A DNA stretch of 62,342 bases, the filler included, from Babesia bigemina (taxonomy: Eukaryota): assembly GCF_000981445.1 (NCBI RefSeq). It is 14 parts of 14 records of this genome, joined end to end, with 100 filler letters (N's around TTAATTAATTAA, not from the genome) between each part and the next. Parts side by side here need not be neighbours in the genome. Positions count along the whole stretch, not along the records: positions 16,351 to 18,881 come from NW_012236937.1; 13 more parts are not named here. One strand, given 5' to 3'. Of the stretch, positions 924 through 60,487 are shown piece after piece. The notes below the pieces were generated by a model, which saw only the letters and a list, made by a program, of their open reading frames with translations, was not told where the DNA came from and searched no databases. A program made the position numbers and the translations under genes. Positions within the stretch are counted from its first letter, which is position 1. Every line of letters begins with the position of its first letter.

Positions 924-1475
924 TTAAAACGTGGCCAAGGCGGTGGCAAAAAGGGCTACCGTTGATACCACAGCGGCGAAACCGGAGACAATCTTCTTGT
1001 CGTACTCACTTACGTACTTCAGCAATGCGACCTTGCCAACTACAGTAGCTTTGTACTTAGAAATGTCGTAGATTGCGTCAATGTGAGCCTTAAGTGCCGC
1101 AAAGTATAAAGCAATCGACTCGTTGGACTCTCTGATGACGGCTGCGACCTCCGCCGTGTTGTCGGTCTTGCCCTTAAGATCCAAGGCTTTTTTAGCAGCG
1201 TCAACCTTCACTCTGGCTGCACTGAACAACTTCACGGCACTTTCGAAACTATCAATCTTGCCCTTGCTGGCGCTAAGGCCAACATCCTTAGTGTAGGCGT
1301 CCTCCGCCTTCAGCTTACTAACTTCGGCCTTCAGGTGATCATCCGCGCTGTCGATGGCCTTAACCCACTCTTCGGGTGTGGAGTCGTCCAACTTGGCTTG
1401 GGCTACGCAGACACTTGCGAAGTTGACGGTGGCAAATCCTACCAAGAGGAGAACAACCTTCTTAAATGCGTTCAT
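924..1475 (-). CDS. Small secreted, probably GPI-anchored surface protein (183 aa)
   Basis: ATG-initiated intronless ORF. It has an N-terminal signal-like segment (MNAFKKVVLLLVGFATVNFASVCVA), an Ala/Lys-rich helical body and a terminal hydrophobic stretch (SGFAAVVSTVALFATALATF) with no cytoplasmic tail. Confidence 0.75.
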   Translation of the reverse strand: MNAFKKVVLLLVGFATVNFASVCVAQAKLDDSTPEEWVKAIDSADDHLKAEVSKLKAEDAYTKDVGLSASKGKIDSFESAVKLFSAARVKVDAAKKALDLKGKTDNTAEVAAVIRESNESIALYFAALKAHIDAIYDISKYKATVVGKVALLKYVSEYDKKIVSGFAAVVSTVALFATALATF

Positions 1476-1659
1476 TGTGATTGATATATACGAGTATGTA
1501 AAAGTTCGGCGTCTTATGCTTAACGACTTTGTCGACTTTAAAGATGTATAAAGTGTTGAGTGACAATGTATGATGACAAGTGCAGAGACTGCGTAGGGTT
1601 AGACAGATTCGAGACGGACCACCACAAGCGCAGGATTACGCCTCATGTGTACTTCTGAG

Positions 1660-4185: not shown

Positions 4186-5349
4186 ATGAGAGAGGTTATT
4201 GCTGTTCACGTCGGCCAAGCCGGTGTCCAAGTCGGAAACGCAGTCTGGTAAGTACACTTCCATATCGGTACAATCGAAGTGTTTTGTGAGTAGAATCTTA
4301 TTGGCGAGCTATTTAACGCCCAGATTGCTGTCTTGTGAAGTAGGAATGGCATTATTAATACATTAACTGTCAACGATTCGCGGGATATAATGCTTTCTCA
4401 GGGAGTTATTTTGCATCGAGCATGGAATAGCACCTGATGGAACCACGGAAAATAAGGAAGCCAGCGGATCCGGTGACGAAGACAAGGCTTTCCACGCCTT
4501 TTTCGCAGAGACCGCTTCCGGCAAACATGTAGGTTGTCATGATGTGACTACGTATGGGATGGCGAAGTTATCTTTCATGCCGCAATGTTGGTGTGGTAGA
4601 ACATAGTTCGATATGCTGCAGTCATATGTTGATTTTTGGAGTGTTGTGAATTGAATGTGATGATTATATTAATGGTTTTGCGCTTTGGCGAAATGTGTTC
4701 GATTGCATTTCTTGATTGGTTTTAACACGGGCGCAGGTACCTAGGTGCTTATTTGTCGACCTTGAGCCCTCGGTTGTGGACGAAGTGCGCAGGGGCGCCT
4801 ACAGTGGCCTGTTCCACCCTGAGCAGTTGATGTCCGGCAAAGAAGATGCAGCCAACAACTTCGCCCGCGGAAAGTACACCACTGGCAGCGAAATCATGAA
4901 CCCCGCTATGGACCGCATTCGCAAGTTGAGTGACGCTTGTGACAGCATCCAAGGTTTCCTCTTCTTCTCGGCCGTCGGCGGTGGTACGGGGTTCCGGTAC
5001 CGGCAGCCTGCTGTTGGAGAACGTCGGAACCGAATACGAACGCAAGACCAAGCTGAACTTCTGCATATGGCCATCTCCCCAGTGTCTACCCGCGGTTGGT
5101 GAGCCCTACAACTCAGTCTTGTCCACTCACTCCTTGCTGGAGAACCGGAACTTCGCCGTGTCCTCGACAACAAGGCCTCTACTCCATCTGCAAGAAGACC
5201 TCGACTTGGCCGCCCATCTACAGACCTCAACCGCTCATGGCCCAGTTATCTCCTCCTGAAAACTCCTTGCTTTCAAGGGCCTCGAAAGTTGACTGACAAA
5301 TCCAAACAACTGGGCCACCCCAGGATCATTTTAGGTCTGTTAACCCCCT
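4186..5349 (+). CDS. Alpha-tubulin (divergent), 5' part. Exons 4186-4247, 4402-4528 and 4737 to contig end; low-quality frameshifts after ~4990
   Basis: Spliced translation [34 protein letters not shown]...[21 protein letters not shown]...[11 protein letters not shown]...GGGTG. Introns are canonical (GTAAGT..CAG and GTAGGT..CAG). Confidence 0.93.
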
Positions 5350-12095: not shown

Positions 12096-12957
<862 letters not shown>

Positions 12958-13000
12958 TCAATACTGACCATTTAAATCATACCTGACCTCCATAGCAGAA

Positions 13001-13032
13001 AGTCAAAAGCCTCCGACCGGAGGCTTTTGACT
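13001..13032. terminator. tonB bidirectional terminator (vector); second copy at 14114-14145
   Basis: Perfect hairpin AGTCAAAAGCCTCCG-AC-CGGAGGCTTTTGACT. Confidence 0.9.
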
Positions 13033-13135
13033 TGATCGGCACGTAAGAGGTTCCAACTTTCACCATAATGAAATAAGATCACTACCGGGCGTATTTTTTG
13101 AGTTATCGAGATTTTCAGGAGCTAAGGAAGCTAAA

Positions 13136-13915
13136 ATGAGTATTCAACATTTCCGTGTCGCCCTTATTCCCTTTTTTGCGGCATTTTGCCTTCCTGTTTT
13201 TGCTCACCCAGAAACGCTGGTGAAAGTAAAAGATGCTGAAGATCAGTTGGGTGCACGAGTGGGTTACATCGAACTGGATCTCAACAGCGGTAAGATCCTT
13301 GAGAGTTTACGCCCCGAAGAACGTTTTCCAATGATGAGCACTTTTAAAGTTCTGCTATGTGGCGCGGTATTATCCCGTATTGACGCCGGGCAAGAGCAAC
13401 TCGGTCGCCGCATACACTATTCTCAGAATGACTTGGTTGAGTACTCACCAGTCACAGAAAAGCATCTCACGGATGGCATGACAGTAAGAGAATTATGCAG
13501 TGCTGCCATAACCATGAGTGATAACACTGCGGCCAACTTACTTCTGGCAACGATCGGAGGACCGAAGGAGCTAACCGCTTTTTTGCCACAACATGGGGGA
13601 TCATGTAACTCGCCCTTGATCGTTGGGAAACCCGGAGCTGATGAAGCCATACCAAACGACAAGCGTGACACCACGATGCCTGTAGCAATGGCAACAACGT
13701 TGCGCAAACTATTAACTGGCGAACTACTTACTCTAGCTTCCCGGCAACAATTAATAGACTGGATGGAGGCGGATAAAGTTGCAGGATCACTTCTGCGCTC
13801 GGCCCTCCCGGCTGGCAGGGTTATTGCTGATAAATCTGGAACCGGGAGCGGGGGTTCCCCCGTATCTTTCAGCCCTGGGGCCCGATTGAAAGCCCTCCCG
13901 CATCGAATTATTTAA
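13136..13915 (+). CDS. bla: TEM beta-lactamase (vector), with read errors in the 3' half
   Basis: [30 protein letters not shown]...MMSTFK. Confidence 0.95.
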
Positions 13916-14143
13916 CGACGGGAAGTCGCCAATCTGGGTAAACGAAATANNNNNNNNNNNNNNNNNNNNNNNNNNNNNNNNNNNNNNNNNNNNTTAATTA
14001 ATTAANNNNNNNNNNNNNNNNNNNNNNNNNNNNNNNNNNNNNNNNNNNNAACGAATTCTCTAGATATCGCTCAATACTGACCATTTAAATCATACCTGAC
14101 CTCCATAGCAGAAAGTCAAAAGCCTCCGACCGGAGGCTTTTGA

Positions 14144-15110
<967 letters not shown>

Positions 15111-15302
15111 GTGACCAAACAGGAAAAAACCGCCCTTAACATGGCCCGCTTTATCAGAAGCCAGACATTAACGCTTCTGGAGAAACTCAACGAGCTGGAC
15201 GCGGATGAACAGGCAGACATCTGTGAATCGCTTCACGACCACGCTGATGAGCTTTACCGCAGCTGCCTCGCGCGTTTCGGTGATGACGGTGAAAACCTCT
15301 GA
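15111..15302 (+). CDS. rop: ColE1 Rop copy-number regulator (vector)
   Basis: MTKQEKTALNMARFIRSQTLTLLEKLNELDADEQADICESLHDHADELYRSCLARFGDDGENL. Confidence 0.98.
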   Translation: MTKQEKTALNMARFIRSQTLTLLEKLNELDADEQADICESLHDHADELYRSCLARFGDDGENL

Positions 15303-15325
15303 TGAGGGCCCAAATGTAATCACCT

Positions 15326-15353
15326 GGCTCACCTTCGGGTGGGCCTTTCTGCG
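15326..15353 (+). terminator. T7Te terminator (vector)
   Basis: GGCTCACCTTCGGGTGGGCCTTTCTGCG. Confidence 0.9.
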
Positions 15354-15364
15354 TTGCTGGCGTT

Positions 15365-15952
15365 TTTCCATAGGCTCCGCCCCCCTGACGAGCATCACAA
15401 AAATCGATGCTCAAGTCAGAGGTGGCGAAACCCGACAGGACTATAAAGATACCAGGCGTTTCCCCCTGGAAGCTCCCTCGTGCGCTCTCCTGTTCCGACC
15501 CTGCCGCTTACCGGATACCTGTCCGCCTTTCTCCCTTCGGGAAGCGTGGCGCTTTCTCATAGCTCACGCTGTAGGTATCTCAGTTCGGTGTAGGTCGTTC
15601 GCTCCAAGCTGGGCTGTGTGCACGAACCCCCCGTTCAGCCCGACCGCTGCGCCTTATCCGGTAACTATCGTCTTGAGTCCAACCCGGTAAGACACGACTT
15701 ATCGCCACTGGCAGCAGCCACTGGTAACAGGATTAGCAGAGCGAGGTATGTAGGCGGTGCTACAGAGTTCTTGAAGTGGTGGCCTAACTACGGCTACACT
15801 AGAAGAACAGTATTTGGTATCTGCGCTCTGCTGAAGCCAGTTACCTCGGAAAAAGAGTTGGTAGCTCTTGATCCGGCAAACAAACCACCGCTGGTAGCGG
15901 TGGTTTTTTTGTTTGCAAGCAGCAGATTACGCGCAGAAAAAAAGGATCTCAA
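15365..15952 (-). other. ColE1/pMB1 replication origin (vector)
   Basis: TTTCCATAGGCTCCGCCCCCCTGACGAGC...AAAAAAGGATCTCAA. Confidence 0.97.
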
Positions 15953-15973
15953 GAAGATCCTTTGATTTTCTAC

Positions 15974-16003
15974 CGAAGAAAGGCCCACCCGTGAAGGTGA
16001 GCC
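15974..16003 (-). terminator. T3Te terminator (vector)
   Basis: Reverse complement is GGCTCACCTTCACGGGTGGGCCTTTCTTCG. Confidence 0.85.
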
Positions 16004-16474
16004 AGTGAGTTGATTTCAGTCCAGTTACGCTGGAGTCTGAGGCTCGTCCTGAATGATATCAAGCTTGAATTCGTTGCGCCGAGTGGCTGGTTAGGTATGA
16101 TTCAAATGGTCAGTCTTGCGCGATATCCCGAGCATTCTCCCGCAAATCCCACGAGTTCGCGAGTGACTACACCTCGTCAGAGCAGTGATGACGGTTAGAT
16201 GCGGCTCAGCGCCCTTGCTGGCAACTGCGGACGAATGCTTGGATCTCTGANNNNNNNNNNNNNNNNNNNNNNNNNNNNNNNNNNNNNNNNNNNNTTAATT
16301 AATTAANNNNNNNNNNNNNNNNNNNNNNNNNNNNNNNNNNNNNNNNNNNNGTAACTACTCACTTAGAGAATCACCTACTCACCTAAAATACAAACGTAGT
16401 CTAATGTCTCGAATTACTCTAGCGGCAACCTGTGAACTAAATAGCACCTAATGAGGTGATGAGTGGACGACAGA

Positions 16475-16828
16475 GCAACGTGTCAACCTAGCACACAGGC
16501 AACGTGCTAAGCTGGCAACCAGGCAAAGTGGTAACCTAGCAACCAGGCAAAGTGCTAAGCTGGCACCCAGGCAAAGTGGTGACCTAGCAACCAGGCAAAG
16601 TGTTGACCTAGCACACAGGCAAAGTGCTAAGCTAGCACCCAGGCAAAGTGCTAAGCTTGCAACCAGGCAAAGTGCTAAGCTAGCAACCAGGCAAAGTGGT
16701 GAGCTAGCACCCAGGCAAAGTGCTAAGCTAGCACACAGGCTAAGTGCTAAGCTAGCACGCAGGCAACGTGCTAACTTAACAACCAGGCAAAGTGCTAAGG
16801 TAGCAACCAGGCAAAGTGCTAAGCTGGC
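16475..16828 (+). repeat. 24-bp tandem repeat (CAAAGTGCTAAGCTAGCAACCAGG)
   Basis: Direct inspection; 8-aa periodicity in the overlapping spurious ORFs. Confidence 0.95.
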
Positions 16829-17330
16829 GGATGAAACGTAATTTGGTAGGTGTTGTAGCACGTTGATTGCCTGGTGCGTTGAGTTGTGCGTTGACTGTGA
16901 GAGGTGTCCGCGTTGCCCATTGAGTCAGTGTCACGTGAGGCTGGGTGATTGGTTGCTGACGTAGGCGGTCGTGAGGGCCGCGGCGGGTGGCCTAAGTCGT
17001 GTGTTGCGAGTCGCTGGCAGGGTGGCGTAATCTGCGTTGGTCTCGTTAAGCAGCATTTATAGGCGTCAATGTAGCGATTGTTAATATCACATTTAGGCAC
17101 GTAGCCGACACGCTCCGCCAGTATGGCGCCGATACCGCGGCTCGTAGCACGGTGCTGCTGCACTGTGGGAGTTGAGCGCACGGGTCGCTGCAATTTTAAT
17201 GGCGGTGCGAATAATGAATAATTTATAGTGACAGTTGGTGCTAGTCACATGCGCCGCGTCAGGGCATCTGTGGTATCCCGGGCAGCTTGGGTGTCGGTGG
17301 CCTGGGCTGGTGGCATACAGGGGTGAGGGT
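16826..17330 (+). promoter_or_regulatory. Conserved ~500-bp GC-rich element, copy 1 (putative promoter/5' exon or ncRNA)
   Basis: Four highly similar copies, each directly upstream of a small Cys-rich gene and in the same orientation. Function is inferred. Confidence 0.6.
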
Positions 17331-17339
17331 TATGTAAGT

Positions 17340-17793
17340 CATGTCGCAGTTGGTGAGTGCTTGCGTAGGTGATTGATATGCTTGCAGCTTGAGGGGAGTG
17401 GGCGTGGCAGTGGTAGTGTTGCAGTTGGTGAGTGCGTTGCTAGGTGATTGACATGTCTGCAGGTTGAGGGGACTGGGCGCGGCAGTGGTACGTGTTGCAG
17501 TTGGTGAGTGCGTTGCTTAGGTGATTGATATGTTCGCAGGTTGAGGGGAGTGGGAGCGGCAGTGGTAGTGTTGCAGTTGGTGAGTGCGTTGCTAGGTGAT
17601 TGATATACTTGCAGGTTGAGGGGAGTGGGAGCGGCAGTGGTACGTGTTGCAGTTGGTGAGTGCGTTGCTAGGTGATTGACATGCTTGCAGGTTGAGGGGA
17701 CTGGGAGCGGCAGTGGTAGTGTTGCAGTTGGTGAGTGCTGCTTAGGTGATTGATATGTTTGCAGGCTGAGGGGACTGGGAGGGAAGCGGGAAG
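17340..17793 (+). repeat. 75/76-bp tandem repeat with intron/micro-exon-like structure (~6 units)
   Basis: Unit is GTGAGTGCGTTGCTAGGTGATTGATATGCTTGCAG (35 nt) plus GTTGAGGGGACTGGGAGCGGCAGTGGTA(C)GTGTTGCAGTTG (40-41 nt). Confidence 0.9.
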
Positions 17794-18255
17794 ATGGGCT
17801 ATACTCCATTGTGTAAGTGTACAAAACGATGTACAGAGCATGAGTGTCTTTGTTGTCATTTGTGTTGTGCAGGATGTAGGAGTCCAAGTTGTCTTCGATG
17901 TCTCAATCTGTCTACTCGGCTAAGGAGTGGATTCTGGGACTGCAAACCTCAGAGATGTAATGAATGTGACACCAAATTGTGTCCATGTGACTGTTGTGAG
18001 AAAAAAAAATTGGAAGAACGTCGACAGCTTCGCTCTTCTTCCTCCCTCGCAGTCCAATCGCCTAGTGTCTCCTCTTCTACCACCGTACAGCGTTCCACCG
18101 GTGAACCCAGTGCTGTTCATACCACCGCTCCATCCAATTCCTCCCCCGTCCCTTACATCATCGCCGCCGTCGCCCTCCTCATCGTCGTCGTCTGCGTCAT
18201 GGTCTACTTCCGCATCCGGCCGTTCCACAGGGTGCGGTATCTACTGCGCAGCTGA
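17794..18255 (+). CDS. Small 18-Cys hypervariable single-TM protein, copy 1 (153 aa, tail YFRIRPFHRVRYLLRS)
   Basis: ATG in the conserved GGGAAG-ATG context. Cys scaffold, Ser-rich linker, TM and tail are shared with three paralogues in the window. Confidence 0.85.
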   Translation: MGYTPLCKCTKRCTEHECLCCHLCCAGCRSPSCLRCLNLSTRLRSGFWDCKPQRCNECDTKLCPCDCCEKKKLEERRQLRSSSSLAVQSPSVSSSTTVQRSTGEPSAVHTTAPSNSSPVPYIIAAVALLIVVVCVMVYFRIRPFHRVRYLLRS

Positions 18256-18343
18256 TCACAATAACCTAACTGGCAACTGACATCTAATGTGCTAGACAGA
18301 GTAATGGTTGTACTGATGCTAAATAAAATTAGCAGTGAGGTGA

Positions 18344-18475
18344 CCACTCCCTCCCTACTCCGTCATCGTCGCCATCATCCTGCTCGACCTGTGCATCTTC
18401 CGCTTCCCGGTGGGCCGCAACATCCGCGATTTCCTCGTACGCAAGATTCCCTTCTGCATCGCGTTCTACAGCTGA
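18344..18475 (+). pseudogene. Orphan TM-tail cassette (PYSVIVAIILLDLCIFRFPVGRNIRDFLVRKIPFCIAFYS*)
   Basis: Same tail as gene 50502-51074. It has no ATG and is preceded by an in-frame TGA within GAGGTGAC. Confidence 0.85.
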
Positions 18476-18602
18476 ACTATGCAATTTAGTAGCGCATAAA
18501 TCGTTCGTCCATATTCCACTGCTCACCTAACTGGCAACTGACATCTAATGTTCTAGACAGTAATGATTGCGTTGATGGCCAATTACATGAGCAGTGAGGT
18601 GA

Positions 18603-18761
18603 CTACTTCACTCTCCCTACTCGGCCATCGCCGCCGTCATCGTTGGCATCATCGTCGCCATCATCCTGCTCGACCTGTGCATCTTCCGCTTTCCGGTGGG
18701 CCGCAACATCCGCGATTTCCTCGTACGCAAGATACCCTTCTGCATCGCGTTCTACAGCTAA
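18603..18761 (+). pseudogene. Orphan TM-tail cassette (PYSAIAAVIVGIIVAIILLDLCIFRFPVGRNIRDFLVRKIPFCIAFYS*)
   Basis: Second tandem copy, with the same flanks as 18344-18475. Confidence 0.85.
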
Positions 18762-29562: not shown

Positions 29563-29736
29563 AGCTTTTTAGTAGCATCATCAATAAAAGAATGGTCAGT
29601 ATCAGCAAGTACTTATAAAGGTTTATAGAGGTCATAGCGTTGATAAGACAAAGTAATTCGAGAGATTTGGACTTAGGGTGAACATGATGGGACATGGCAG
29701 TGGCAAGCGGTGGAAGAAGGGAAGTGAAGAGCGACA

Positions 29737-29794
29737 AGGCACAAGTTATTATTGTGGTTAATAGAGGTCATAGCGGTATTATGGCGAGGTAATT
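29737..29794 (-). promoter_or_regulatory. Conserved ves 5' leader (AATTACCTCGCCATAATACCGCTATGACCT...ATAACTTGTGCCT); also ~40345-40402, ~48868-48928, ~59947-60008 and ~60301-60362
   Basis: Five copies, each immediately after a 23-bp array; four are followed by a ves frame and the fifth runs into a contig end. Function unknown. Confidence 0.7.
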
Positions 29795-32700
29795 TGGGCG
29801 ATGTAGAGTGGGTAAAGGGGCGATGTGGAGTGGATCAGGGAGCGATGAAGAGTGGATAAAGCGGCGATGTAGAGTGGATTAGGGAGCGATGTAGAGTGGA
29901 TAAAGGGGCGATGTAGAGTGGGTAAAGGGGCGATGCAGAGTGGGTAAAGAGGCGATGTAGAGTGGGTAAAGGAGCGATGTAGAGTGGATAGAGGAGCGAT
30001 GTAGAGTGGGTAAAGGGGCGATGTGGAGTGGATAAGGGAGCGATGTAGAGTGGATAAGGGAGCGATGTGGAGTGGATAAAGGGGCGATGCAGAGTGGGTA
30101 AAGGGGCGATGTAGAGTGGATAAAGGGGCGATGTAGAGTGGNNNNNNNNNNNNNNNNNNNNNNNNNNNNNNNNNNNNNNNNNNNNTTAATTAATTAANNN
30201 NNNNNNNNNNNNNNNNNNNNNNNNNNNNNNNNNNNNNNNNNAGGGGCGATGTAGAGTGGATAAAGGAGCGATGTAGAGTGGAGTAAGGGGCGATGTAGAG
30301 TGGATAAAGGGGCGATGTAGAGTGGGTAAAGAGGCGATGTGGAGTGGATTAGGAGCGATGTAGAGTGGGTTAAGGGGCGATGTAGAGTGGATTAAGGGGC
30401 GATGTAGAGTGGATAAGGGGCGATGTAGAGTGGGTTAAGGGGCGATGTAGAGTGGATTAAGGGGCGATGTAGAGTGGATAAGGGGCGATGTAGAGTGGGT
30501 TAGGGAGCGATGTAGAGTGGGTTAAGGGGCGATGTAGAGTGGACTAAAAGGCGATGTAGAGTGGATTAGGGAGCGATGTAGACACGGTTAAGGAGCGATG
30601 TGGAGTGAGTTAGGGGGCGATGTGGAGTGGAAAAAGGAGCGATGTAGAGTGGGTAAAGGGGCGATGAAGGGAGGTTAAGGAGCGATGGAGACTGGGTTAG
30701 GGAGCGATGTAGAGTGGGTTAAGGGGCGATGAAGGGTGGGTTAGGGAGCGATGTAGAGTGGGTAAAGGGGCGATGTAGAGTGGGTCAAGGGGCGATGTGG
30801 AGTGGGTTAAGAGGGCGATGTAAACTGGGTTAAGGGGCGATGTAGAGTATGTTAGGGGCGATGTAGAGTGGGTTAGGGACGCGATGTAGATGTGGGTATA
30901 GGAGCGCATGTAGAGTGGATAAAGGAGCGATGTAGAGTGGATAAAGGATGCGATGTAGCGTGGATAAAGGGGCGATGTAGAGTGGGTAAAGGAGCGATGT
31001 AGAGTGGGTTAAGGAGCGATGTAGAGTGAATAAAGGGGCGATGTAGAGTGAATAAAGGGGCGATGTAGAGTGGATTAAGGGGCGATGTAGAGTTGATAAA
31101 GGAGCGATGTAGAGTGGGTAAAGGGCGATGTAGAGTGGATAAAGGGGCGATGTGGAGTGGGTAAGGGACGATGTAGAGTGGGTTAGGGAGCGATGTAGAG
31201 TGGGTTAAGGGGCGATGTAGAGTGGGTTAAGGGGCGATGTGGAGTGGGTAAAGGGGCGGTGTAGAGTGGGTTAAGGGGCGATGTGGAGTGGGTAAAGGGG
31301 CGGTGTAGAGTGGGTTAAGGGGCGATGTAGAGTGGGTTAGGGAGCGATGTAGAGTGGGTTAAGGGGCGATGTAGAGTGGGTTAGGGAGCGATGTAGAGTG
31401 GGTTAAGGGGCGATGTAGAGTAGATTAGGGGCGATGTAGAGTGGGTTAAGGGGCGATGTAGAGTGGATAAAGGGGCGATGTAGAGTGGATAAAGGGGCGA
31501 TGTGGAGTTGATAAAGGGGCGATGTAGAGTGGGTTAGGGAGCGATGTAGAGTGGGTTAAAAGGCGATGTGAAGTGGATAAAGGGGCGATGTAGAGTGGGT
31601 AAAGGGGCGATGTAGAGTGGATAAAGGGGCGATGTAGAGTGGATAAAGGAGCGATGTAGAGTGGGTAAAGGAGCGATGTAGAGTGGATAAAGGGGCGATG
31701 TAGAGTGGATAAAGGGGCGATGTAGAGTGGAGTAAGGGGCGATGTAGAGTGGGTTAAGGGGCGATGTAGAGTGGATAAAGGAGCGATGTAGAGTGGAGTA
31801 AGGGGCGATGTAGAGTGGATAAAGGGGCGATGTAGAGTGGGTAAAGAGGCGATGTGGAGTGGATTAGGAGCGATGTAGAGTGGGTTAAGGGGCGATGTAG
31901 AGTGGATTAAGGGGCGATGTAGAGTGGATAAGGGGCGATGTAGAGTGGGTTAAGGGGCGATGTAGAGTGGATTAAGGGGCGATGTAGAGTGGACAAAGGG
32001 GCGATGTAGAGTGGGTTAGGGAGCGATGTAGAGTGGGTAAAGGGGCGATGTAGAGTGGATAAAGGGGCGATGTAGAGTGGGTAAAGGGGCGATGTGGAGT
32101 GGGTAAGGGAGCGATGTAGAGTGGATAAGGGGCGATGTGGAGTGGGTAAGGGAGCGATGTAGAGTGGATAAGGGGCGATGTAGGGTGGGTAAAGGAGCGA
32201 TGTGGAGTGGATAAAGGAACGATGTAGAGTGGGTTAGGGAGCGATGTAGAGTGGGTTATGGAGCGATGTGGAGTGTGTTAAGGGGCGATGTAAGGTGGAT
32301 AAGGGAGCGATGTAAAGTGGGTTAAGGGGCGATGCAGAGTGGATAAAAAGGCAATGTGGAGTGGATAAAGGAGCGATGTAGAGTGGGTTAGGGAGCGATG
32401 TAGAGTGGGTAAAGGAGCGATGGAGAGTGGGTTAGGGAGCGATGTAGGGTGGGTTAAGGGGCGATGTAGAGTGGGTAAGGGAGCGATGTAGAGTGGATAA
32501 AGGGGCGATGTAGAGTGGATAAAGGGGCGATGTAGAGTGGGTTAGGGAGCGATGTAGAGTGGGTTAAGGGGCGATGTGGAGTGGATTAGGGAGCGATGTA
32601 GAGTGGGTTAAGGGGCGATGTAGAGTGGGTTAAGGAGCGGTGTTGAGTGGGTTAGGGAGCGATGTAGAGTGGGTAAGGGGCTATGTAGAGTGGATAAAGG

Positions 32701-33370: not shown

Positions 33371-33814
33371 TTAGCTGCGCAGTAGATACCGCACCCTGTG
33401 GAACGGCCGGATGCGGAAGTATATCATGGCGCAGATGACGACGATGACGAGGGCGATAGGTGCGATGATGTAAGGCGCGGGGGAACCGGTGGTAGGCGGT
33501 TGAATGACGGCTTGATGCTCAGCTGTGCGGGAAGAAGAGGAACCGGAGTCAAGGGCGGCACTGGGAGTTAAAGAGAGACGGGAAGGGTAGAGGACTATGC
33601 GTTTCTCGACACAACAGTTACATAGACAGTCGCTGTAACACTCTTTACATCTCGAATGATCGCACTGCTCCTGTCCATTCTTGCGCAAATAGGAGAAGTG
33701 GATACATTGAAGACACCGTGCTATACATCCTTTACAACACCAAGAACAGCAATTACACACTACCTCTTCTTTGCATTGCTTATTACACTTGTAACACCGC
33801 TCCCCTTTCCCCAT
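33371..33814 (-). CDS. Small 18-Cys hypervariable single-TM protein, copy 2 (147 aa)
   Basis: Same scaffold, start context and YFRIRPFHRVRYLLRS tail. Confidence 0.85.
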   Translation of the reverse strand: MGKGERCYKCNKQCKEEVVCNCCSWCCKGCIARCLQCIHFSYLRKNGQEQCDHSRCKECYSDCLCNCCVEKRIVLYPSRLSLTPSAALDSGSSSSRTAEHQAVIQPPTTGSPAPYIIAPIALVIVVICAMIYFRIRPFHRVRYLLRS

Positions 33815-33924
33815 CTTCCCGCTCCCCTCCCAGTCCCCTCAGCCTGCGAACATATCAATCACCTATCAACGCACTCACCAACTGCAACACGTACCACTGC
33901 CGCTCCCAGTCCCCTCACCAACGC

Positions 33925-34412
33925 ACTCACCGCTGTATCCCCCCAGCCCGGGCCACCGACACCCGCACTGCCCGGGATACCACAGCTGCCCTGACGCGAC
34001 GCATGTCATCAGCACCAACTGTCACTTTAAATTATTCACTATTCGCAACGCCATAAAAATTGCAGCGAGCCACGTGCGCTCAACTCCCACAGTGCAGCAG
34101 CACCGTGCTACGAGCCGCGGTATCGGCGCCATACTGGCGGAGTGTGTCGGCTACGTGCCTAAATGTTATATTAACGATCGCTACATTGCCGCCTATAAAT
34201 GCTACTTAACTAGGCCAACGCGGATTACGCCACCCTGCCAGCGACTCGCAACACACGGCTTACGTCACCCGCCGCGGCCCTCACGGCCGCCTACGTTAGC
34301 GACCAATCACCCAGCCTCACGTGACACTCACTCAATGGGTAACGCGTACACCTCTCACAGTCAACGCACAACTCAACGCCACAACACCTACCAAATTACG
34401 GTTCATCCGCCA
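33925..34412 (-). promoter_or_regulatory. Conserved ~500-bp element, copy 2 (followed by only ~1.5 units of the 75-bp repeat, 33820-33925)
   Basis: High similarity to 16826-17330. Confidence 0.6.
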
Positions 34413-34979: not shown

Positions 34980-37900
34980 TTACGGTTGTAGATACGATAT
35001 TTTGGCAAGCCTTCCGACTTGCGCTGCCGCCAACAGCGATTGCGCCGTTATCCTGTGCGATGATGGTGATCGTAAGTGCGATTTGATGTGCAGCACATCC
35101 AGTCTGCCAACCATCACGCAGATGAGGTAGAAGAGGGAGAGTGACCAGAGCGCTAGGGTCATCCACAGGAATGGTGCGCGGATGGTGAACATGAAATTAT
35201 CAATGGCTTTGAAGAACTGCACAAGATGTGAGTCTTTCTCAAATGCCTCCTTAAATACATTACAGAAATCTCTGCACGTGCGTTTCGTATGCGATTGTCC
35301 ATCCCTGTTCAGCCTCTCTGGATCGCCGAGAACAAAGCCGTATTTTGCCAATGTCGGCAGCGTTGAATTGCACTTTACAATGGATTTGCATTTGGGATCG
35401 TGATATCGTGGCGGTTGATACGTCGTTGATGTAGTTGGACACTCCTTGACGCACGCTTTTTGATGACAATTCGATCCCCTGGCACCGCATTTGGAGTTGC
35501 ACTCATCGTACAACTTTTTAAGCAGATCGTAGAACGATGCCGTCAGATAGACAATCCACGACAAATACTTATCGGCGTGTTTTGCTGAGAACGTCTCGTA
35601 GATGGCGTGACCGATGGGCCGCAGATAAGGACCGCATACGACGGCGTCCCGTGATAAGCATACGAGACTGGCCAGGCTACCAGCGGCATGCCCCTTCCAC
35701 GCTGCTGAGTGACTAGCGGAAAATAAGTGGTAGACGTTCAAATCATTATACTGACGCCCGAAATTGGCTGCGTTAACTTTCTCATTAAATGCCCGTTGTT
35801 TATGCGCTTGACCATACATACCCCAGCGATCGGTGAGGTGATAGTAGAAGCTGAACATGTCCGCCAGCGTTTTCGGCGCACTAGGCAGAAGGCAGTTGAG
35901 GTAACTGCACAGTCTAGTGAGCGGCGAATTTGGACGGCCACAGAAATACACAAGCACATCGCATATATCCCGGCCAATCATCGTATGCGACGCGATGGCG
36001 CTGATGTCGGCGAAGCCCATTGGAGTTCGGCACGGCATACCAGGTGAATTACCACAAGTGCCACATGACAGACTGGATCCCCTAGCCGTAACCGAATGCG
36101 GCAGGTGGCCTTTCAGACCGTCCTCCAAGAACGATTGCAGTGGCGACTTGACGCCGCAGCTGGGATATTGCTCACCCGTTTGGTTGCCACTTTGGTCATG
36201 CCTTTGGTCACAGTCTTGCTTAGGGCATTGCTTCGTGTTGCACTGCCAGCCCGACCCACCGATGTACCTGCCGTAGTGGCAGTCCCTCCAGCCGCTGAGC
36301 TGTGCGTTGTACTTACACTGCTGCAGCAGGAAGTACAGCTGGTGGTAGAGGCGCTTAAGCAGGTCGAACAACGTGCACAACAGTTGAATCATGTTGGTAG
36401 GGTAATCTAATTTCAGCGAGTTGTCGGAGAAATCACACGCGTAGATTCCGTCCTTGTGACCGTGGCCTAGGATAGCGGTGAGGACGGCGTGGGAGTTGGC
36501 AGACACTTTGTAGAGCGCTTCGTCGATATGCGTGTGTTCAAAGTCAGACGGGTGCGTATCGAAGGGCTGCAGTATCTTCTCACCCGGACGTTGCTTGTCC
36601 TCCTTCATGAACTCGGACTCAATGTGCTTCTTCAGCTTGCCGTACACGGGGTTGAACTGCAGGCCGTTGCACCAGACAAGAATTTCGTAAACGGAGCATG
36701 GAGCCCTGGGTTTGTCAACACGAGTAAGGTGGCATACAGCGAAGTACGTCTGCAGGAAATCATAGAGTTTTCGGATGAGACCACTCTCCTCCGCGATGGT
36801 TACATCAAGCTCGTCCGACCCGGATGTGGATGAAGGAATGCCGGTGACGGGAGATGACAGATGACTGAACAAATTATGCGTCTCGTTGGTAAGGTGTTCG
36901 AGAATGCTGCTACCATTAAAATCAGTTTTGTGATTCAGCTCGCCATGCTCAGCGTTCTCAGGACGATGGACGTCATACCCGTTGTCGCGGAAGAAGAGAG
37001 CGCGGAGGCTGGAGGTGCCGTCAGCTGGGTGATATATTTTGTGGCCATCCCAACCGCTGTATTCGAGTCTATTCTTGAGTTCAGTTAGAGCGTCGTATAA
37101 GATGGGCGTGATGGTCCAACAGATTTTGGCGTAGTTTCTTCTTTCCGCCTCGGTGAGTTTCTCCCATTCGATGGTCCTCAAAGAATACGTTGAAACGTAG
37201 GCTTTTTTGAGCTCCTCGACGAGAGGGGTGAAGCCTGCTTTTAGAGCATTGAGGAGTGAGGGGCACTTGGCTGCGCCGTAGGTAGAGGGCTTGAAGGCGG
37301 TAACAGATTCATTAAGGTTACTCAGGTTCTTGGTGAAGACATGATCGAAGTGCAGTGATTGTGCTAGGACAGTGAGTAAGTTTGTCACTGCGTTGTACGA
37401 AGGCTTGATTTTGGAGGAGTCAGACTCGACATCAGTTTGATTCTGCAGATTAAGGAGGAATGATTTAAAGGCGCCGTGTGATATCGATGCCGCCTCTCTT
37501 AATGGTGACGTTACAGCTGTGAAGGTGTTGGGATTGACATCTTCAATCTGCTCTACCCTCGCAATAAACTTCCCCGCCAGCCTGTTCATGAACCCCTTGT
37601 AACCGATGTCCAGATCGTCGGTGATTTCCTTAGGTAGAGGCTCCAACTCCTTCTCGGCTTTCTCCGCGAACTCTAGCAGAATGGCCTTCACCGAAGTGAC
37701 GTAGTTCTTGTTGACCTGGGTGATCAGAGTGTTCTGAGCTTCGTCGACGTTGGAGCTTACTACTTTGCCAATCGATGCGATTGTCGCCTGGGCTGTTGGA
37801 CCGGCGCTGGTGAGGAAGTTTTCAGCCTCTTTGATGGCCGCGCTTAAATCAATCAATCGCAGGTCGTTGAGTTTGTTTTTGACGTATTCAAGTTGCCCCT

Positions 37901-40349: not shown

Positions 40350-40404
40350 AAGTTATTATAATGGTGTAAGAAGGTCATAGCGGTATTATGGCAAGGTAAT
40401 TCGA

Positions 40405-42286
40405 GGGATGTAGAGTGGGTTAAGGGGCGATGTAGAGTGGATAAAGGGGCGATGTAGAGTGGATAAAGGGGCGATGTGGAGTTGATAAAGGGGCGATGTA
40501 GAGTGGGTTAGGGAGCGATGTAGAGTGGGTTAAAAGGCGATGTGAAGTGGATAAAGGGGCGATGTAGAGTGGGTAAAGGGGCGATGTAGAGTGGATAAAG
40601 GGGCGATGTAGAGTGGATAAAGGAGCGATGTAGAGTGGGTAAAGGAGCGATGTAGAGTGGATAAAGGGGCGATGTAGAGTGGATAAAGGGGCGATGTAGA
40701 GTGGAGTAAGGGGCGATGTAGAGTGGGTTAAGGGGCGATGTAGAGTGGATAAAGGAGCGATGTAGAGTGGAGTAAGGGGCGATGTAGAGTGGATAAAGGG
40801 GCGATGTAGAGTGGGTAAAGAGGCGATGTGGAGTGGATTAGGAGCGATGTAGAGTGGGTTAAGGGGCGATGTAGAGTGGATTAAGGGGCGATGTAGAGTG
40901 GATAAGGGGCGATGTAGAGTGGGTTAAGGGGCGATGTAGAGTGGATTAAGGGGCGATGTAGAGTGGATAAGGGGCGATGTAGAGTGGGTTAGGGAGCGAT
41001 GTAGAGTGGGTTAAGGGGCGATGTAGAGTGGACTAAAAGGCGATGTAGAGTGGATTAGGGAGCGATGTAGACACGGTTAAGGAGCGATGTGGAGTGAGTT
41101 AGGGGGCGATGTGGAGTGGAAAAAGGAGCGATGTAGAGTGGGTAAAGGGGCGATGAAGGGAGGTTAAGGAGCGATGGAGAGTGGGTTAGGGAGCGATGTA
41201 GAGTGGGTTAAGGGGCGATGAAGGGTGGGTTAGGGAGCGATGTAGAGTGGGTAAAGGGGCGATGTAGAGTGGGTCAAGGGGCGATGTGGAGTGGGTTAAG
41301 GGGCGATGTAAAGTGGGTTAAGGGGCGATGTAGAGTATGTTAGGGGCGATGTAGAGTGGGTTAGGGAGCGATGTAGAGTGGGTAAGGAGCGATGTAGAGT
41401 GGATAAAGGAGCGATGTAGAGTGGATAAAGGAGCGATGTAGAGTGGGTAAAGGGGCGATGTAGAGTGAGTAAAGGAGCGATGTAGAGTGGGTTAGGGAGC
41501 GATGTAGAGTGGTCAAAGGGGCGATGTAGAGTGGATAAGGGAGCGATGTAGAGTGGGTTAGGGAGCGATGTGGAGTGGGTTAAGGAGCGATGTAGAGTGG
41601 ATTAGGGAGCGATGTAGAGTGGATTAGGGAGCGATGTAAGGTGGGTTAGGGAGCGATGTAGGGAGGGTAAAGGAGCGATGTAGGGAGGGTAAATAGGCGA
41701 TGTAGAGTGGGTTAGGGAGCGATGTGGAGTGGGTTAAGGGGCGATGTAGANNNNNNNNNNNNNNNNNNNNNNNNNNNNNNNNNNNNNNNNNNNNTTAATT
41801 AATTAANNNNNNNNNNNNNNNNNNNNNNNNNNNNNNNNNNNNNNNNNNNNGGGGCGATGTAGAGTGGGTTAAGGGAGCGATGTAGAGTGGATAAGGGGCG
41901 ATGTAGAGTGGGTTAAGGGGCGATGTAGAGTGGGTAAGGGAGCGATGTAGAGTGGATAAGGGGCGATGTAGAGTGGGTTAAGGGAGCGATGTAGAGTGGA
42001 TAAGGGGCGATGTAGAGTGGATTAGGGAGCGATGTAGAGTGGATAAAGGGGCGATGTAGAGTGGGTTAAGGGGCGATGTGGAGTGGATAAAGGGGCGATG
42101 TAGAGTGGGTTAGGGAGCGATGTAGGGTGGATAAAGGAGCGATGTAGAGTGGGTTAGGGAGCGATGTAGGGTGGTTAAAGGAGGGATGTAGAGTGGGTAA
42201 AGGGGCGATGTAGAGTGGACAAAGGGGCGATGTAGAGTGGGTTAAGGAACGATGTAGAGTGGATAAAGGGGCGATGTAGAGTGGAG
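40405..42286. repeat. 23-bp G-rich arrays (40405-41750 and 41851-42286, separated by a linker)
   Basis: Direct inspection. Confidence 0.98.
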
Positions 42287-48871: not shown

Positions 48872-48931
48872 GGCACAAGTTATTATTGTGGTTTAAAGAG
48901 GTCATAGCGGTAATATGGCGAGGTAATTGGA

Positions 48932-50501: not shown

Positions 50502-51074
50502 TCAGCTGTAAAACGCGATGCAGAAGGGTATCTTGCGTACGAGGAAATCGCGGATGTTGCGGCCCACCGGGAAGCGGAAGATGCACAGGTCGAGCAGGAT
50601 GATGGCGACAATGATGGCAACGATGACGGCGGCGATGGCTTGGGGGTCAGGGGAAAAAGGTGTGGAGTCTTCTTCAGTAGGGTCTTCGATGGAATCTTCA
50701 TTACCGCTGGTACGACGTAGTGCACTGTTCTCGGACAGATCACCGGAGGAATCAGGGGGAGGCGGTGGAGGTGGAGGCTGTGGAACGGGGGCACTGCACT
50801 CGTCAGGCCGCTCTCTACATTTCCGTTGACAACAGTCACATTTACATTGTAACTCGTTGCCTGCACATTTGGTTATACAATCGAAGGTTTTGCAATTGTA
50901 ACTTGGATCCTTGTTATTTTGCCGCTTCCAGGTATATGCAAAACACTCATAACAACGGGATAAACTATCCGTATTACATTCTTTGCAACACCAGGGACAG
51001 CAGTTACAAACCTGCATATATTTACACTTTTTGTTACACCTAGTGCATGGTTTCCCTGGCCAATAATGAGTCAT
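50502..51074 (-). CDS. Small Cys-rich single-TM protein, copy 3 (190 aa, 18+2 Cys, alternative tail FRFPVGRNIRDFLVRKIPFCIAFYS)
   Basis: Same scaffold and GGGAAG-ATG context; Pro-rich linker. Confidence 0.85.
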   Translation of the reverse strand: MTHYWPGKPCTRCNKKCKYMQVCNCCPWCCKECNTDSLSRCYECFAYTWKRQNNKDPSYNCKTFDCITKCAGNELQCKCDCCQRKCRERPDECSAPVPQPPPPPPPPDSSGDLSENSALRRTSGNEDSIEDPTEEDSTPFSPDPQAIAAVIVAIIVAIILLDLCIFRFPVGRNIRDFLVRKIPFCIAFYS

Positions 51075-51079: not shown

Positions 51080-51750
51080 CGCTCTGCTCCCAGTCCCCTC
51101 AACCTGCAAACATATCAGTCACCTAAGCACAACTCACCTACAAAAACACGTACCACTGCCGCTCCCAGTCCCCTCACCCTGCGAACATATCAATCACCTA
51201 GCAACGCACTCACCGACTGCAACACGTACCACTGCCGCTCCCAGTCCCCTCAACCTGCAAACATATCAGTCACCTATGCAAGCACTCACAAACTGCAACA
51301 CGTACACTGCCGCTCCCAGTCCCCTCAGCCTGCAGACATATCAATCACTCAAGCAACGCACTCACCAACTGCAACACGTACCACTGCCGCGCCCAGTCCC
51401 CTCAACCTGCGAACATGTCAATCACTCAAGCAGCACTCACCAACTGCAACACTACCACTGCCGCTCCCAGTCCCCTCAGCCTGCAAACATATCAATCACT
51501 CAAGCTGCACTCACCAACTGCAACACTACCACTGCCGCTCCCAGTCCCCTCAACCTGCAAACATATCAATCACCTAGCAACGCACTCACCAACTGCAACA
51601 CGTACCACTGCCACTCCCAGTCCCCTCAACCTGCGAACATATCAATCACTCATGCAACGCACTCACCAACTGCAACACGTACCACTGCCGCTACCAGTCC
51701 CCTCAGCCTGCAAACATATCAATAACCTAAGCAGCACTCACCAACTGCAA
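51080..51750 (-). repeat. 75/76-bp intron/micro-exon-like repeat (~9 units)
   Basis: Reverse complement of the 17340 unit. Confidence 0.9.
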
Positions 51751-51764
51751 CATGACTTACTTAA

Positions 51765-52240
51765 CCCTCACCCCTGTGTCCCCCCAGCCCAGGCCACCGA
51801 CACCCACGCTGCCCGGGATACCACAGCTGCCCTGACGCGACGCATGTGATCAGCACCAACTGTCACTCTAAATTATTAAATATTCGCAAAGCCATTAAAA
51901 TTGCAGCGACCCGTGCGCTCAACTCCCACAGTGCAGCAGCACCGTGCTACGAGCTGCGGTATCGGCGCTATGCTGGCTGAGTGTGTCGGCTACGTGCCTA
52001 AATGTGATATTAACGATCGCTACATCGCTGCCTATAAATGCTACTTAACCAGGCCAACGCGGATTACGCCACCCTGCCAGTGACTCGCAACACACGACTT
52101 AGGACACCCGCCGCGGCCCTCACGACCGCCTACGTTAGCGACCAATCACCCAGCCTCACGTGACACTGACTCAATGGGCAACGCGGACACCTCTCACAGT
52201 CAACGCACAGCTCAACGCAACAACCAAATAACGGTTCATT
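51765..52240 (-). promoter_or_regulatory. Conserved ~500-bp element, copy 3
   Basis: High similarity to the other copies. Confidence 0.6.
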
Positions 52241-57437: not shown

Positions 57438-57940
57438 GCGGATGAACCATAATTTGGTGGGTGTTGTAGCACGTTGATTGCCTGGTGTGTTGAGTTGTGC
57501 GTTGACTGTGAGTGGTGTCCGCGTTGCCCTTTGAGTCAGTGTCACGTGAGGCTGGGTGATTGGTCGCTAACGTAGGCGGCCGTGAGGGCCGCGGCGGGTG
57601 ACCTAAGTCGTGTGTTGCGAGTCACTGGCAGGGTGGCGTAATCGGCGTTGGCCCGGTTAAGTAGTTTTATAGGCGGCGATGTAGCGATAGTTAATATCAC
57701 ATTTAGGCACGTAGCCGACACGCTCCGCCAGCATGGCGCCGATACCGCGGCTCGTAGCACGGTGCTGCTGCACTGTGGGAGTTGAGAGCACGGGACTCGC
57801 TGCAATTTTAATGGCGTTGCGAAAAATGAATAATTTAGGGTGACAGTTGGTGCTGATCACATGCGTCGCGTCAGGGCAGCTGTGGTATCCTGGGCAGCGG
57901 GGGTGTCGGTGGCCTGGGCTGGGGGATACAGCGGTGAGGG
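57436..57940 (+). promoter_or_regulatory. Conserved ~500-bp element, copy 4
   Basis: High similarity to the other copies. Confidence 0.6.
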
Positions 57941-57949
57941 TGAGTGTTG

Positions 57950-58574
57950 ATGAGGGGACTGGGAGCGGCAGTGGTAGTGTTGCAGTTGGTGAGTGCGTTG
58001 GTAGGTGATTGATATGTTCGCAGGTTGAGGGGACTGGGCGCGGAAGTGGTAGTGTTGCAGTTGGTGAGTGCTGCTTGAGTGATTGATGTCTGCAGGCTGA
58101 GGGGAGTGGGCGCGGCAGTGGTACGTGTTGCAGTTGGTGAGTGCGTTGCTAGGTGATTGATATGTTCGCAGGTTGAGGGGACTGGGCGCGGCAGTGGTAC
58201 GTGTTGCAGTTGGTGAGTGCGTTGCTAGGTGATTTATATGTCTGCAGGTTGAGGGACTGGTAGCGGCAGTGGTACGTGTTGCAGTTGGTGAGTGCGTTGC
58301 TAGGTGATTGATATGCTTGCAGGTTGAGGGGACTGGGAGCGGCAGTGGTAGTGTTGCAGTTGGTGAGTGCGTTGCTTAGTGATTGATATGTTCGCAGGTT
58401 GAGGGGAGTGAGAAGGTAGAGGCAGTGGTAGTGTTGCAGTTGGTGAGTGCGTTGGTAGGTGATTGATATGTTCGCAGGTTGAGGGGACTGGGCGCGGAAG
58501 TGGTAGTGTTGCAGTTGGTGAGTGCTGCTTGAGTGATTGACATGTTTGCAGGTTGAGGGGAGTGGGAGGGGAAG
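57950..58574 (+). repeat. 75/76-bp intron/micro-exon-like repeat (~8-9 units)
   Basis: Same unit as 17340-17793. Confidence 0.9.
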
Positions 58575-59030
58575 ATGTCGAAGTGTAAGTGTGATAATAC
58601 ATGTCAGCCGCGTGAGTGTAGATGCTGCCAGTACTGTTGTAAGAGATGTGGTTTATGTGAAGAATGTCGTGATATATACTTTGAGCGCAAAGGTACAGGC
58701 GAATGCCATCGTTTGAAATGTCTTGGTTGTTTAACCAACTGTGTTTGTTTATGTTGCAGAAGTGATCGCTTTACTGTTACCTATACTCGTTATTACAGCA
58801 GTCCAGAGCGTGCCGGCTCTACCTCCCGTGTTGCCGCTGTCCCCGGTTCCGCCTCTCGCCCCGATTCTCAGCACCGGGTCTCCGCTCAACAGTCCTCCAC
58901 CGCTTCCACCCCCAACGTCCTCCCGTACATCATCGCCGCCGTCGCCGTCATCATCATCGTCGTCGTCTGCGTCATGATCTACTTCCGCATCCGGCCGTTC
59001 CACAGGGTGCGGTATCTACTGCGCAGCTGA
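58575..59030 (+). CDS. Small 18-Cys hypervariable single-TM protein, copy 4 (151 aa)
   Basis: Same scaffold, start context and YFRIRPFHRVRYLLRS tail. Confidence 0.85.
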   Translation: MSKCKCDNTCQPRECRCCQYCCKRCGLCEECRDIYFERKGTGECHRLKCLGCLTNCVCLCCRSDRFTVTYTRYYSSPERAGSTSRVAAVPGSASRPDSQHRVSAQQSSTASTPNVLPYIIAAVAVIIIVVVCVMIYFRIRPFHRVRYLLRS

Positions 59031-60300: not shown

Positions 60301-60487
60301 TGAATCACCTCGCCATAATACCCCTATGACCTTTATAAACCATCACAATAACTTGTGCCTTGTCACCCTTCTCTTCCCCTCTTCCACCTCTTGCCACTGC
60401 CATGTCCCATCATATTCACCCTAAGTCCAAATTCCTCGAATTACTTCGTCTTATTAACGCTATGACCTCCATAAACCTTTATAATAA

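What the first reader, a model, noticed from the sequence alone, without database searches (positions are those of the whole stretch)
17249..17793. Tandem repeat whose unit looks like a complete intron plus micro-exon, behind a conserved uORF
Seen: each unit is a ~35-nt GTGAGT...TGCAG segment plus 40 or 41 nt. Copy number ranges from ~1.5 to ~9 between loci. All four loci have an upstream ATG (17249, 34004, 51845, 57861) encoding MRRVRAxVVSxAxxVSVAxAGG up to a GTGAG. Exons of 40/41 nt shift the frame, and one entry phase hits GY-TGA. In all four genes that TGA in the last unit is in frame with the main ATG and 7-9 codons before it. Known: Babesia introns are often this short. Inference: a variable-length spliced 5' leader in which exon number or skipping sets where the uORF stops, and so tunes re-initiation at the main ATG.
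Basis: partly seen in the sequence, partly recalled or inferred. Interest (0 to 1): 0.8.

Follow-up and report, generated by a model that had tools for sequence, protein, structure and literature searches.

The report
Minisatellite built of whole introns
In a cattle-blood parasite (Babesia bigemina), an undescribed family of small cysteine-rich proteins with one predicted membrane anchor is preceded by a 75-base DNA repeat of variable copy number whose every unit carries conserved intron signals, so it is likely a non-coding leader chopped into many tiny spliced exons; the proposed upstream-peptide control is not supported.

Summary
Four loci in a B. bigemina contig bin carry 6, 1, 9 and 8 copies of a 32-36 nt GTGAGT…TGAY…YYGCAG segment, separated by 40/41-nt spacers (19 of 20), ending 23-29 nt before the ATG of a 147-190 aa Cys-rich protein with one C-terminal transmembrane helix. 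The family has 60 gene models in the public B. bigemina annotation, all 'hypothetical', and no hits in other species. Across 22 units the nine splice-site positions never vary (p≈0.002; 1 of 75 circular shifts) while the intron interior does. That is the footprint expected of real splicing, but no transcript shows it: the only runs that touch the array show it unspliced and may be DNA. The 'conserved uORF' is no more conserved than flanking DNA (91.8 vs 93.3%), mostly changes amino acids, shifts frame between paralogs and gives no shared stop. Best reading: one ancestral 5'-UTR intron was amplified with its flanks into a minisatellite, and each copy is likely still spliced because a retained copy leaves an upstream AUG. 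uORF tuning by exon number is possible but unsupported.

The parts
16820..17248 (+). Locus A: conserved upstream block (about 430 nt), likely promoter/5' end; best initiator-like sites 160 and 2 nt before the uATG
   Evidence: 93.3% pairwise identity over 350 nt among 4 loci; B. bovis initiator matrix from PMC4148916 Table 2; start site not mapped
17249..17326 (+). Locus A: 25-codon upstream ORF, weak context (C at -3, C at +4); not conserved at peptide level
17323..17349 (+). Locus A: candidate 27-nt first intron GTGAGG…TCGCAG, followed by TTG
   Evidence: sequence only
17353..17764 (+). Locus A: six intron-like units (17353-87, 17428-62, 17504-39, 17580-614, 17656-90, 17731-64) with 40/41-nt spacers
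17765..17793 (+). Locus A: last 29-nt leader exon with TGA in frame 9 codons before the ATG
17794..18255 (+). Locus A: main ORF, 153 aa, 19 Cys, C-terminal TM and tail (type T1)
33844..34004 (-). Locus B: uORF (34004-33927), fused remnant unit and one complete intron-like unit (33878-33844)
33371..33814 (-). Locus B: main ORF, 147 aa, 19 Cys, TM; downstream of and co-oriented with a ves1b-type ORF (34980-40352)
51104..51845 (-). Locus C: uORF (51845-51768) and nine intron-like units (51741-51104)
50502..51074 (-). Locus C: main ORF, 190 aa, 22 Cys, TM and tail (type T2); predicted helix 144-165; downstream of a ves1b-type 3' end (52550-53943)
57861..58551 (+). Locus D: frameshifted uORF (29 aa unspliced) and eight intron-like units (57989-58551)
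58575..59030 (+). Locus D: main ORF, 151 aa, 19 Cys, TM (type T1)

Best explanation
The array is a variable-copy 75-nt repeat in front of an undescribed Babesia bigemina gene family, and each unit is likely a working ~35-nt intron plus a 40-41 nt non-coding exon in the 5' leader, likely made by tandem duplication of one ancestral leader intron with its flanks. Shown: unit anatomy, copy numbers 1-9, invariance of donor and acceptor against a variable interior, a start codon fixed by the cysteine pattern, and one ATG inside nearly every intron and none in the spacers. Inferred: transcription starts in the conserved block upstream; copy number drifts by slippage or unequal exchange like the neighbouring 12/20/22/24-nt minisatellites; each copy must be spliced out because a retained copy leaves a four-codon upstream ORF (MFAG-stop type) ahead of the start, which keeps selection on every splice site. 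The 25-codon ORF at the front is likely a by-product of conserved leader DNA and is mostly scanned past.
For: Donor +1..+6 and acceptor -3..-1 invariant in 22 of 22 units cut at a motif unrelated to splicing: 9 of 9 columns against 37 of 69 overall, hypergeometric p=0.0022 after dropping the anchor columns; only the true placement of 75 circular shifts reaches 9. All variants at -5, -6, -7 are T/C; at the branch-like GTGATTGAT, T>C changes at -15 (2 units) and -11 (4 units) keep YTRAY. Contigs from two other public runs show the same pattern at locus B: all 14 substitution or indel rows inside the intron fall outside donor +1..+6 and acceptor -4..-1 (probably the same standing variants, so not independent events). 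A shuffled unit has the three signals in 0.39% of trials. The unit joins the end of the 5' exon (TGTTGCAGTTG), the intron and the start of the last exon (GYTGAGGGGACTGGGAG), as a duplication of one intron with flanks would. 17 Cys are invariant in 20 family members, with the first 3-13 residues after the main Met, so the array is not coding. Only 23-29 G-rich nt lie between array and ATG, and the best initiator-like scores are upstream of the array; median B. bovis 5' UTR is 152 nt (PMC4148916, passages). 23 of 24 introns have an ATG at -10 opening MFAG/MSAG/MLAG/MLAA-stop. Gene finders trained on B. bovis (PMC4066756 section 8) splice through the array in many public models: 28 of 54 carry a translated-spacer signature by regex, at least one a false hit.
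Against: No spliced molecule was seen. In runs X1 and X2 ('RNA?' by guess) 34 contigs lay on locus B, the array ones unspliced, with no joint and no loose end at a splice site. These runs hold nothing on alpha-tubulin and X1 covers upstream DNA, so they may be trace DNA of high-copy repeats; not decisive either way. GT and AG alone are not significantly more conserved than the rest (4 of 4, p=0.076), and interior versus spacer variability is not significant once anchor columns are removed (8 of 25 vs 19 of 34 invariant, p=0.11). The branch-like A is lost or changed in 2 of 22 units. The ATG-free spacer is weak evidence: a shuffled spacer lacks ATG 43% of the time and all units share one ancestor. 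0 of 23 family gene ids looked up are among the 3,721 genes passing 1 CPM in a blood-stage/kinete RNA-seq table (PMC9806345 supplement) and 0 of 6 are in the proteome table; 2 of 2 neighbouring large genes tested are also missing from the RNA-seq table, so strain divergence or multi-mapping may explain it.
Confidence: 0.55

Rival explanations
1. The array is an unspliced minisatellite in the promoter or leader; its fixed positions are protein-binding motifs or just recent homogenisation, and the intron look comes from one dead ancestral intron.
For: All array contigs in X1/X2 are unspliced; the cassette is full of other minisatellites; no expression found for 23 family ids; spacer has a G-run (GAGGGGA) like apicomplexan promoter G-motifs (ATGGGG at -50 in PMC4148916; Plasmodium G-box recalled); interior vs spacer test not significant.
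Against: The invariant columns fall exactly on donor and acceptor (1 of 75 shifts; p=0.0022) and variation before the acceptor stays pyrimidine. An unspliced leader would carry 8, 2, 12 and 10 ATGs. There is little room for a start site after the array.
Confidence: 0.2
2. The array is spliced, but mostly as one large intron or by skipping from the first donor to a late acceptor, so the mature leader is short and nearly constant whatever the copy number.
For: A first donor GTGAG sits at +73/74 in all four loci; first-donor-to-last-acceptor gives a 96-103 nt leader from the uATG in all four. 40-nt internal exons are easily skipped (general knowledge).
Against: Internal units keep their splice sites as strictly as terminal ones (24 of 24 keep GTGAGT and GCAG). 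In A, B and C this product puts the uORF across the main ATG out of frame.
Confidence: 0.13
3. One reading: splicing is real and exon number or skipping moves the stop of a translated uORF, tuning re-initiation at the main ATG.
For: In A and C the modelled uORF length swings between 39 and 145 aa with the number of exons kept, sometimes stopping 24 nt before the ATG and sometimes overlapping it. In-frame TGA in 4 of 4 window loci and 23 of 27 inferable public models. uORF re-initiation is established for var2csa (PMC8383288, passages).
Against: uORF identity 91.8% vs 93.3% for the flank; mostly amino-acid-changing variation; two frame classes in the family; exon number is irrelevant in D, and in all loci if the first donor is not used; weak start context in 3 of 4, possibly 2 nt from the cap; an equally 'conserved' 9-10 codon ORF lies at -50; 4 of 27 models lack the in-frame TGA.
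Confidence: 0.1
4. The 25-codon ORF is a signal peptide spliced onto the Cys-rich ORF through coding micro-exons.
For: MRRVRAAVVSRAAWVSVAWAGG resembles a signal peptide by eye, and the main ORF lacks one; some public models make such fusions.
Against: The TGA in the last exon blocks the main frame in 4 of 4 loci; no modelled splice path reached the main frame; spacers are not multiples of three; frame varies between paralogs; many fused public models are out of frame with the cysteine pattern.
Confidence: 0.02

Closest known systems
Short U2-type spliceosomal introns and 5'-UTR introns; intron/exon gain by tandem duplication
   Same: GT donor with GTRAGT consensus, branch-like YTRAY at -12, pyrimidines and YAG; 5'-UTR alternative regions rich in uAUGs are known in mammals (PMC3488318, passages). 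B. bovis ves1-beta genes have 2-11 introns (PMC2034396, passages).
   Different: Here the intron plus exon is itself the unit of a length-variable minisatellite in a non-coding leader, across a gene family. Searches for such a case found none in the held library.
var2csa uORF / re-initiation control in Plasmodium falciparum
   Same: Upstream ATG in front of a variant-antigen-linked gene of an apicomplexan blood parasite.
   Different: var2csa has a 360-nt uORF shown by mutation to repress (PMC8383288); here the uORF has no conserved frame, peptide or stop, and no test exists.
Babesia bovis smORF family; B. bigemina ves1/ves2
   Same: Small, multi-copy, variable proteins interspersed with ves1 genes; single-exon coding region as in 42 of 44 smORFs (PMC2034396).
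   Different: smORF and ves2 have predicted signal peptides and ves2 lacks the TM; this family has no evident N-terminal hydrophobic stretch, 19-22 Cys and a C-terminal TM; no match to the ves1b C-terminal 406 aa (probability 0.5%). PMC4066756 reports no smORF homologs in B. bigemina and, in the sections and passages read, does not mention this family.
Schistosome micro-exon genes (recalled, not looked up)
   Same: Runs of very short exons in a parasite multigene context.
   Different: Those are coding exons in multiples of three; these are 40/41 nt, non-coding and near-identical tandem copies.

Membership tests
U2-type spliceosomal intron | GT donor with extended consensus | tested here: met
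   GTGAGT invariant in 22 of 22 independently cut units
U2-type spliceosomal intron | YAG acceptor with pyrimidines before it | tested here: met
   GCAG invariant; -5..-7 only T/C
U2-type spliceosomal intron | Branch-point motif near the acceptor | tested here: met
   TGAY motif in 22 of 24; A at -12; use not shown
U2-type spliceosomal intron | Splice signals under stronger constraint than neighbours | tested here: met
   9 of 9 invariant, p=0.0022; GT/AG alone p=0.076
U2-type spliceosomal intron | Removed from the mature RNA | tested here: inconclusive
   No joint in X1/X2, which may be DNA; four raw RNA runs held no reads on the stretch they were laid on
5'-UTR element | Transcription start upstream of the array | not testable with these tools
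   Only initiator-matrix scores
Regulatory uORF (var2csa type) | Conserved frame or peptide across paralogs | tested here: not met
Regulatory uORF (var2csa type) | Conserved stop position relative to the main ATG | tested here: not met
   Modelled gap from -130 to +308 nt with all introns removed
Regulatory uORF (var2csa type) | Translated, and repression relieved by uATG mutation | not testable with these tools
   needs ribosome profiling or reporters
ves1 (main ORF) | Conserved VESA C-terminal domain, large protein | tested here: not met
   hhalign probability 0.5%; 147-190 aa
BbigVes2 (main ORF) | Signal peptide, no C-terminal membrane anchor | tested here: not met
   C-terminal hydrophobic helix in all aligned members; definition
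smORF (main ORF) | N-terminal signal peptide | tested here: not met
   by inspection of alignment; no predictor run
smORF (main ORF) | Association with ves1 clusters | tested here: met
   B and C follow ves1b-type ORFs in the same orientation

The most novel reading that the evidence does not exclude
A parasite gene family whose protein output is gated by a minisatellite of whole introns: every repeat unit adds one more intron that must be removed, each retained one leaves a four-codon upstream ORF, so repeat slippage (1 to 9 units) resets how much translatable mRNA each ves-linked paralog makes. That would be a heritable, mutable expression dial made of splicing.
Probability: 0.15. Interest if true: 0.85.

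Novelty: new variant of a known kind. Interest (0 to 1): 0.55.

Why it matters
If the units are spliced, this is ongoing intron gain and loss by minisatellite slippage, visible as 1-9 introns among paralogs of one genome, which makes a long-discussed route of intron gain directly testable by RT-PCR. It also uncovers a family of about 60 gene models for small Cys-rich, predicted membrane-anchored proteins beside ves1 genes in a cattle parasite; these are listed as hypothetical, and about half of the public models appear to be wrong because gene finders read the leader as coding. If unit number changes protein output, it would add a post-transcriptional layer to Babesia variant-gene control.

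Tried and rejected
No whole genome is held for the window, so the unit statistics rest on 22-24 units from four loci. Sequencing-run search: no RNA holder listed; two 'RNA?' insect-metagenome runs with share 0.07. Laid on locus B they show only unspliced array and one upstream contig; on alpha-tubulin nothing. Raw runs X9, X23, X12, X4 gave 0 reads and are no test. The spacer motif found 0 stretches in metagenome contigs. Pfam gave no match above cut-off for the family; ESM Atlas no usable hit; PDB sequences none at E 0.1; AlphaFold model low confidence (pLDDT 57.7, pTM 0.26), so no fold search was run. P0059 (542 aa repeat, weak hit) was dropped from the family count as spurious. Leader folding showed nothing distinctive (MFE per nt -0.29 to -0.38; a G-quadruplex predicted in some models only; no shuffle control). 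Reading the spacer itself as a second GT/GC-AG intron was rejected because its +2 base is T 16, C 5, G 1 and its internal CAG is lost in one unit. Earlier scan notes: none by sequence, words or place. Literature searches found no description of this repeat or family; subscription papers and database browser tracks were not searchable. That Babesia introns are often about 35 nt is recalled, not confirmed here; the one clear intron read in the window (alpha-tubulin, 4529-4736) is 208 nt.

Full report
Context. The window is 14 contig pieces joined by N44-TTAATTAATTAA-N44 linkers. Long ORFs end in two conserved tails typical of ves1-type surface antigens (assignment from the tails and protein size, with family definitions from PMC4066756 section 22). 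All named homologs of the small ORFs are Babesia bigemina. The exact window proteins tested (3 of 4) are not in the collection, so the window is probably another strain than the annotated one. No whole genome was available.

Observation. Tandem Repeats Finder reports 75-nt arrays at 17342-17781 and 57951-58568 and the same array at 51086-51752; locus B has one complete unit. The four loci hold 6, 1, 9 and 8 segments GTGAGT…YYGCAG of 32-36 nt, with 40/41-nt spacers in 19 of 20 cases, and a last spacer of 29, 29, 29 and 23 nt before an ATG in a good context (AAG ATG). The TGA in that last spacer is in frame with the ATG in 4 of 4.

The gene behind the array. The main ORFs encode 147-190 aa: a Cys-rich N-terminal half, a Ser/Pro/Thr-rich linker, one hydrophobic helix and a short basic tail of type T1 or T2. 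A profile search found 54 proteins, all B. bigemina hypotheticals; the index-free search of 1.84 billion representatives found 42, adding six more B. bigemina models and one spurious repeat. That gives 60 models and no hit in another species. In 20 aligned members 17 cysteines are invariant and start a few residues after the main Met, which fixes the start and makes the array non-coding. No Pfam, PDB or Atlas match and no usable fold were obtained. The family is not ves1, ves2 or smORF by the features tested, but loci B and C follow ves1b-type genes in the same orientation. The public annotation was ab initio, and 28 of 54 models carry a translated-spacer signature (at least one false hit), so the array is family-wide and confuses gene finders.

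Is each unit an intron? I cut the arrays at a spacer motif unrelated to splicing and aligned 22 units, all distinct. Donor +1..+6 and acceptor -3..-1 are invariant (9 of 9); 37 of 69 non-anchor columns are invariant overall (p=0.0022), and only the true placement of the mask among 75 circular shifts scores 9. Variation at -5 to -7 is T/C only, and 6 of 7 alleles between -15 and -5 are transitions, against 4 of 17 in the spacer. One shuffled unit shows donor, branch motif and acceptor at intron spacing in 0.39% of trials. Against: GT and AG alone give p=0.076; interior versus spacer gives p=0.11 after removing the anchor bias (the p=0.02 was inflated by it); units share ancestry; and the branch-like A is not invariant. 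The unit's ends match the end of the 5' exon and the start of the last exon, as expected if one intron was duplicated with its flanks. B and D begin with a remnant in which an intron 5' end is fused to a spacer, a sign of slippage.

RNA evidence. None is decisive. No RNA holder was listed. Contigs of X1 and X2 on locus B cover the unit unspliced, with no joint; their 14 variant rows inside the intron all avoid the splice sites. They also cover upstream DNA (X1) and nothing on alpha-tubulin, so they are most simply trace high-copy DNA. In a published blood-stage/kinete table with a 1 CPM filter (PMC9806345; passages and supplement search), 0 of 23 family ids appear, nor do 2 of 2 neighbouring large genes; 0 of 6 ids are in the proteome table of PMC4066756. 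The family may be silent in those stages or lost to strain divergence (44% best identity between a window protein and the annotated strain) and multi-mapping.

The uORF. Its DNA is 91.8% identical among loci, the 350 nt upstream 93.3%; 5 of 6 variable codons in the first 20 change the amino acid; D has a one-base deletion. Of six public models starting at this ATG, four read a different frame from codon 6. If the first GTGAG is not used as a donor, the uORF ends there whatever happens in the array. If it is used and all introns are removed, the uORF is 145, 45-50, 40 and 26-44 aa in A-D, overlapping the main ATG in A and B and ending 265-308 nt before it in C and D. The start context is weak in 3 of 4, an initiator-like site lies 2 nt before it, and other ATGs precede it. 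The in-frame TGA is present in 23 of 27 public models where the last-exon length could be inferred from the translation, with lengths 23, 29 and 35 dominant and 27, 28, 28, 30 as exceptions; this is inference from predicted proteins.

A simpler link to translation. So that TGA is the stop of an intron-borne micro-ORF. Splicing would clear the leader of these ATGs; retention would restore them. This is an inferred reason why each copy keeps its splice sites. The partition itself is weak statistically.

Verdict. Real feature; likely spliced leader introns amplified as a minisatellite (0.55); unspliced repeat 0.20; one large intron or skipping 0.13; uORF tuning 0.10; coding fusion 0.02. No description was found in nine literature searches of the held library. 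Papers seen: PMC4066756 (outline, passages, sections 8, 9, 22 part 1, first part and a search of supplement 3); PMC4148916, PMC2034396, PMC9531838, PMC10975891, PMC8383288, PMC3488318, PMC6630957 (passages); PMC9806345 (passages, supplement searches). Supplement 2 of PMC4066756 (figures) was not read and might show these loci.

Noticed in passing
window 12096-13949 and 14050-16250: Two contigs encode a class A beta-lactamase with plasmid-origin-like sequence: cloning-vector contamination in the assembly bin.
   Followed up: partly
window 18208-18761 (+); 50579-50250 (-): Spare copies of the TM+tail cassette (types T1 and T2) follow the small genes in tandem, each followed by a CTAAC/CTAAT…TAG block resembling a branch point and acceptor. 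Public ab initio models P0016, P0033, P0034 splice T1 to T2. Possible alternative C-termini or donors for tail swapping.
   Followed up: partly
window 29568-30141, 40352-42284, 48892-49579, 60109-60488: ves1-type ORFs start right after 22-nt G-rich arrays and a shared pyrimidine-rich segment, without an obvious first exon. Recalls the 70-bp repeats ahead of silent trypanosome VSG cassettes (recalled; a lead only).
   Followed up: no
window 16488-59945: A fixed order of minisatellites around the cassettes: 24-mer, small gene, 12-mer, 20-mer, 22-mer. After the ves1b-type ORF ending at 24037 the 24-mer is present but the small gene is absent.
   Followed up: no
window 4380-5300: Alpha-tubulin fragment with a 208-nt GTAGGT…GCGCAG intron at 4529-4736; frameshifts toward the contig end look like low-quality sequence.
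   Followed up: partly
public gene ids: Family members BBBOND_0303910 and BBBOND_0305330 are two gene numbers from the two dominant VESA1B proteins named in PMC4066756 (0303890, 0305310).
   Followed up: no
window 927-1598 (-): ORF with an N-terminal hydrophobic stretch and a C-terminal hydrophobic tail, like a GPI-anchored surface protein.
   Followed up: no
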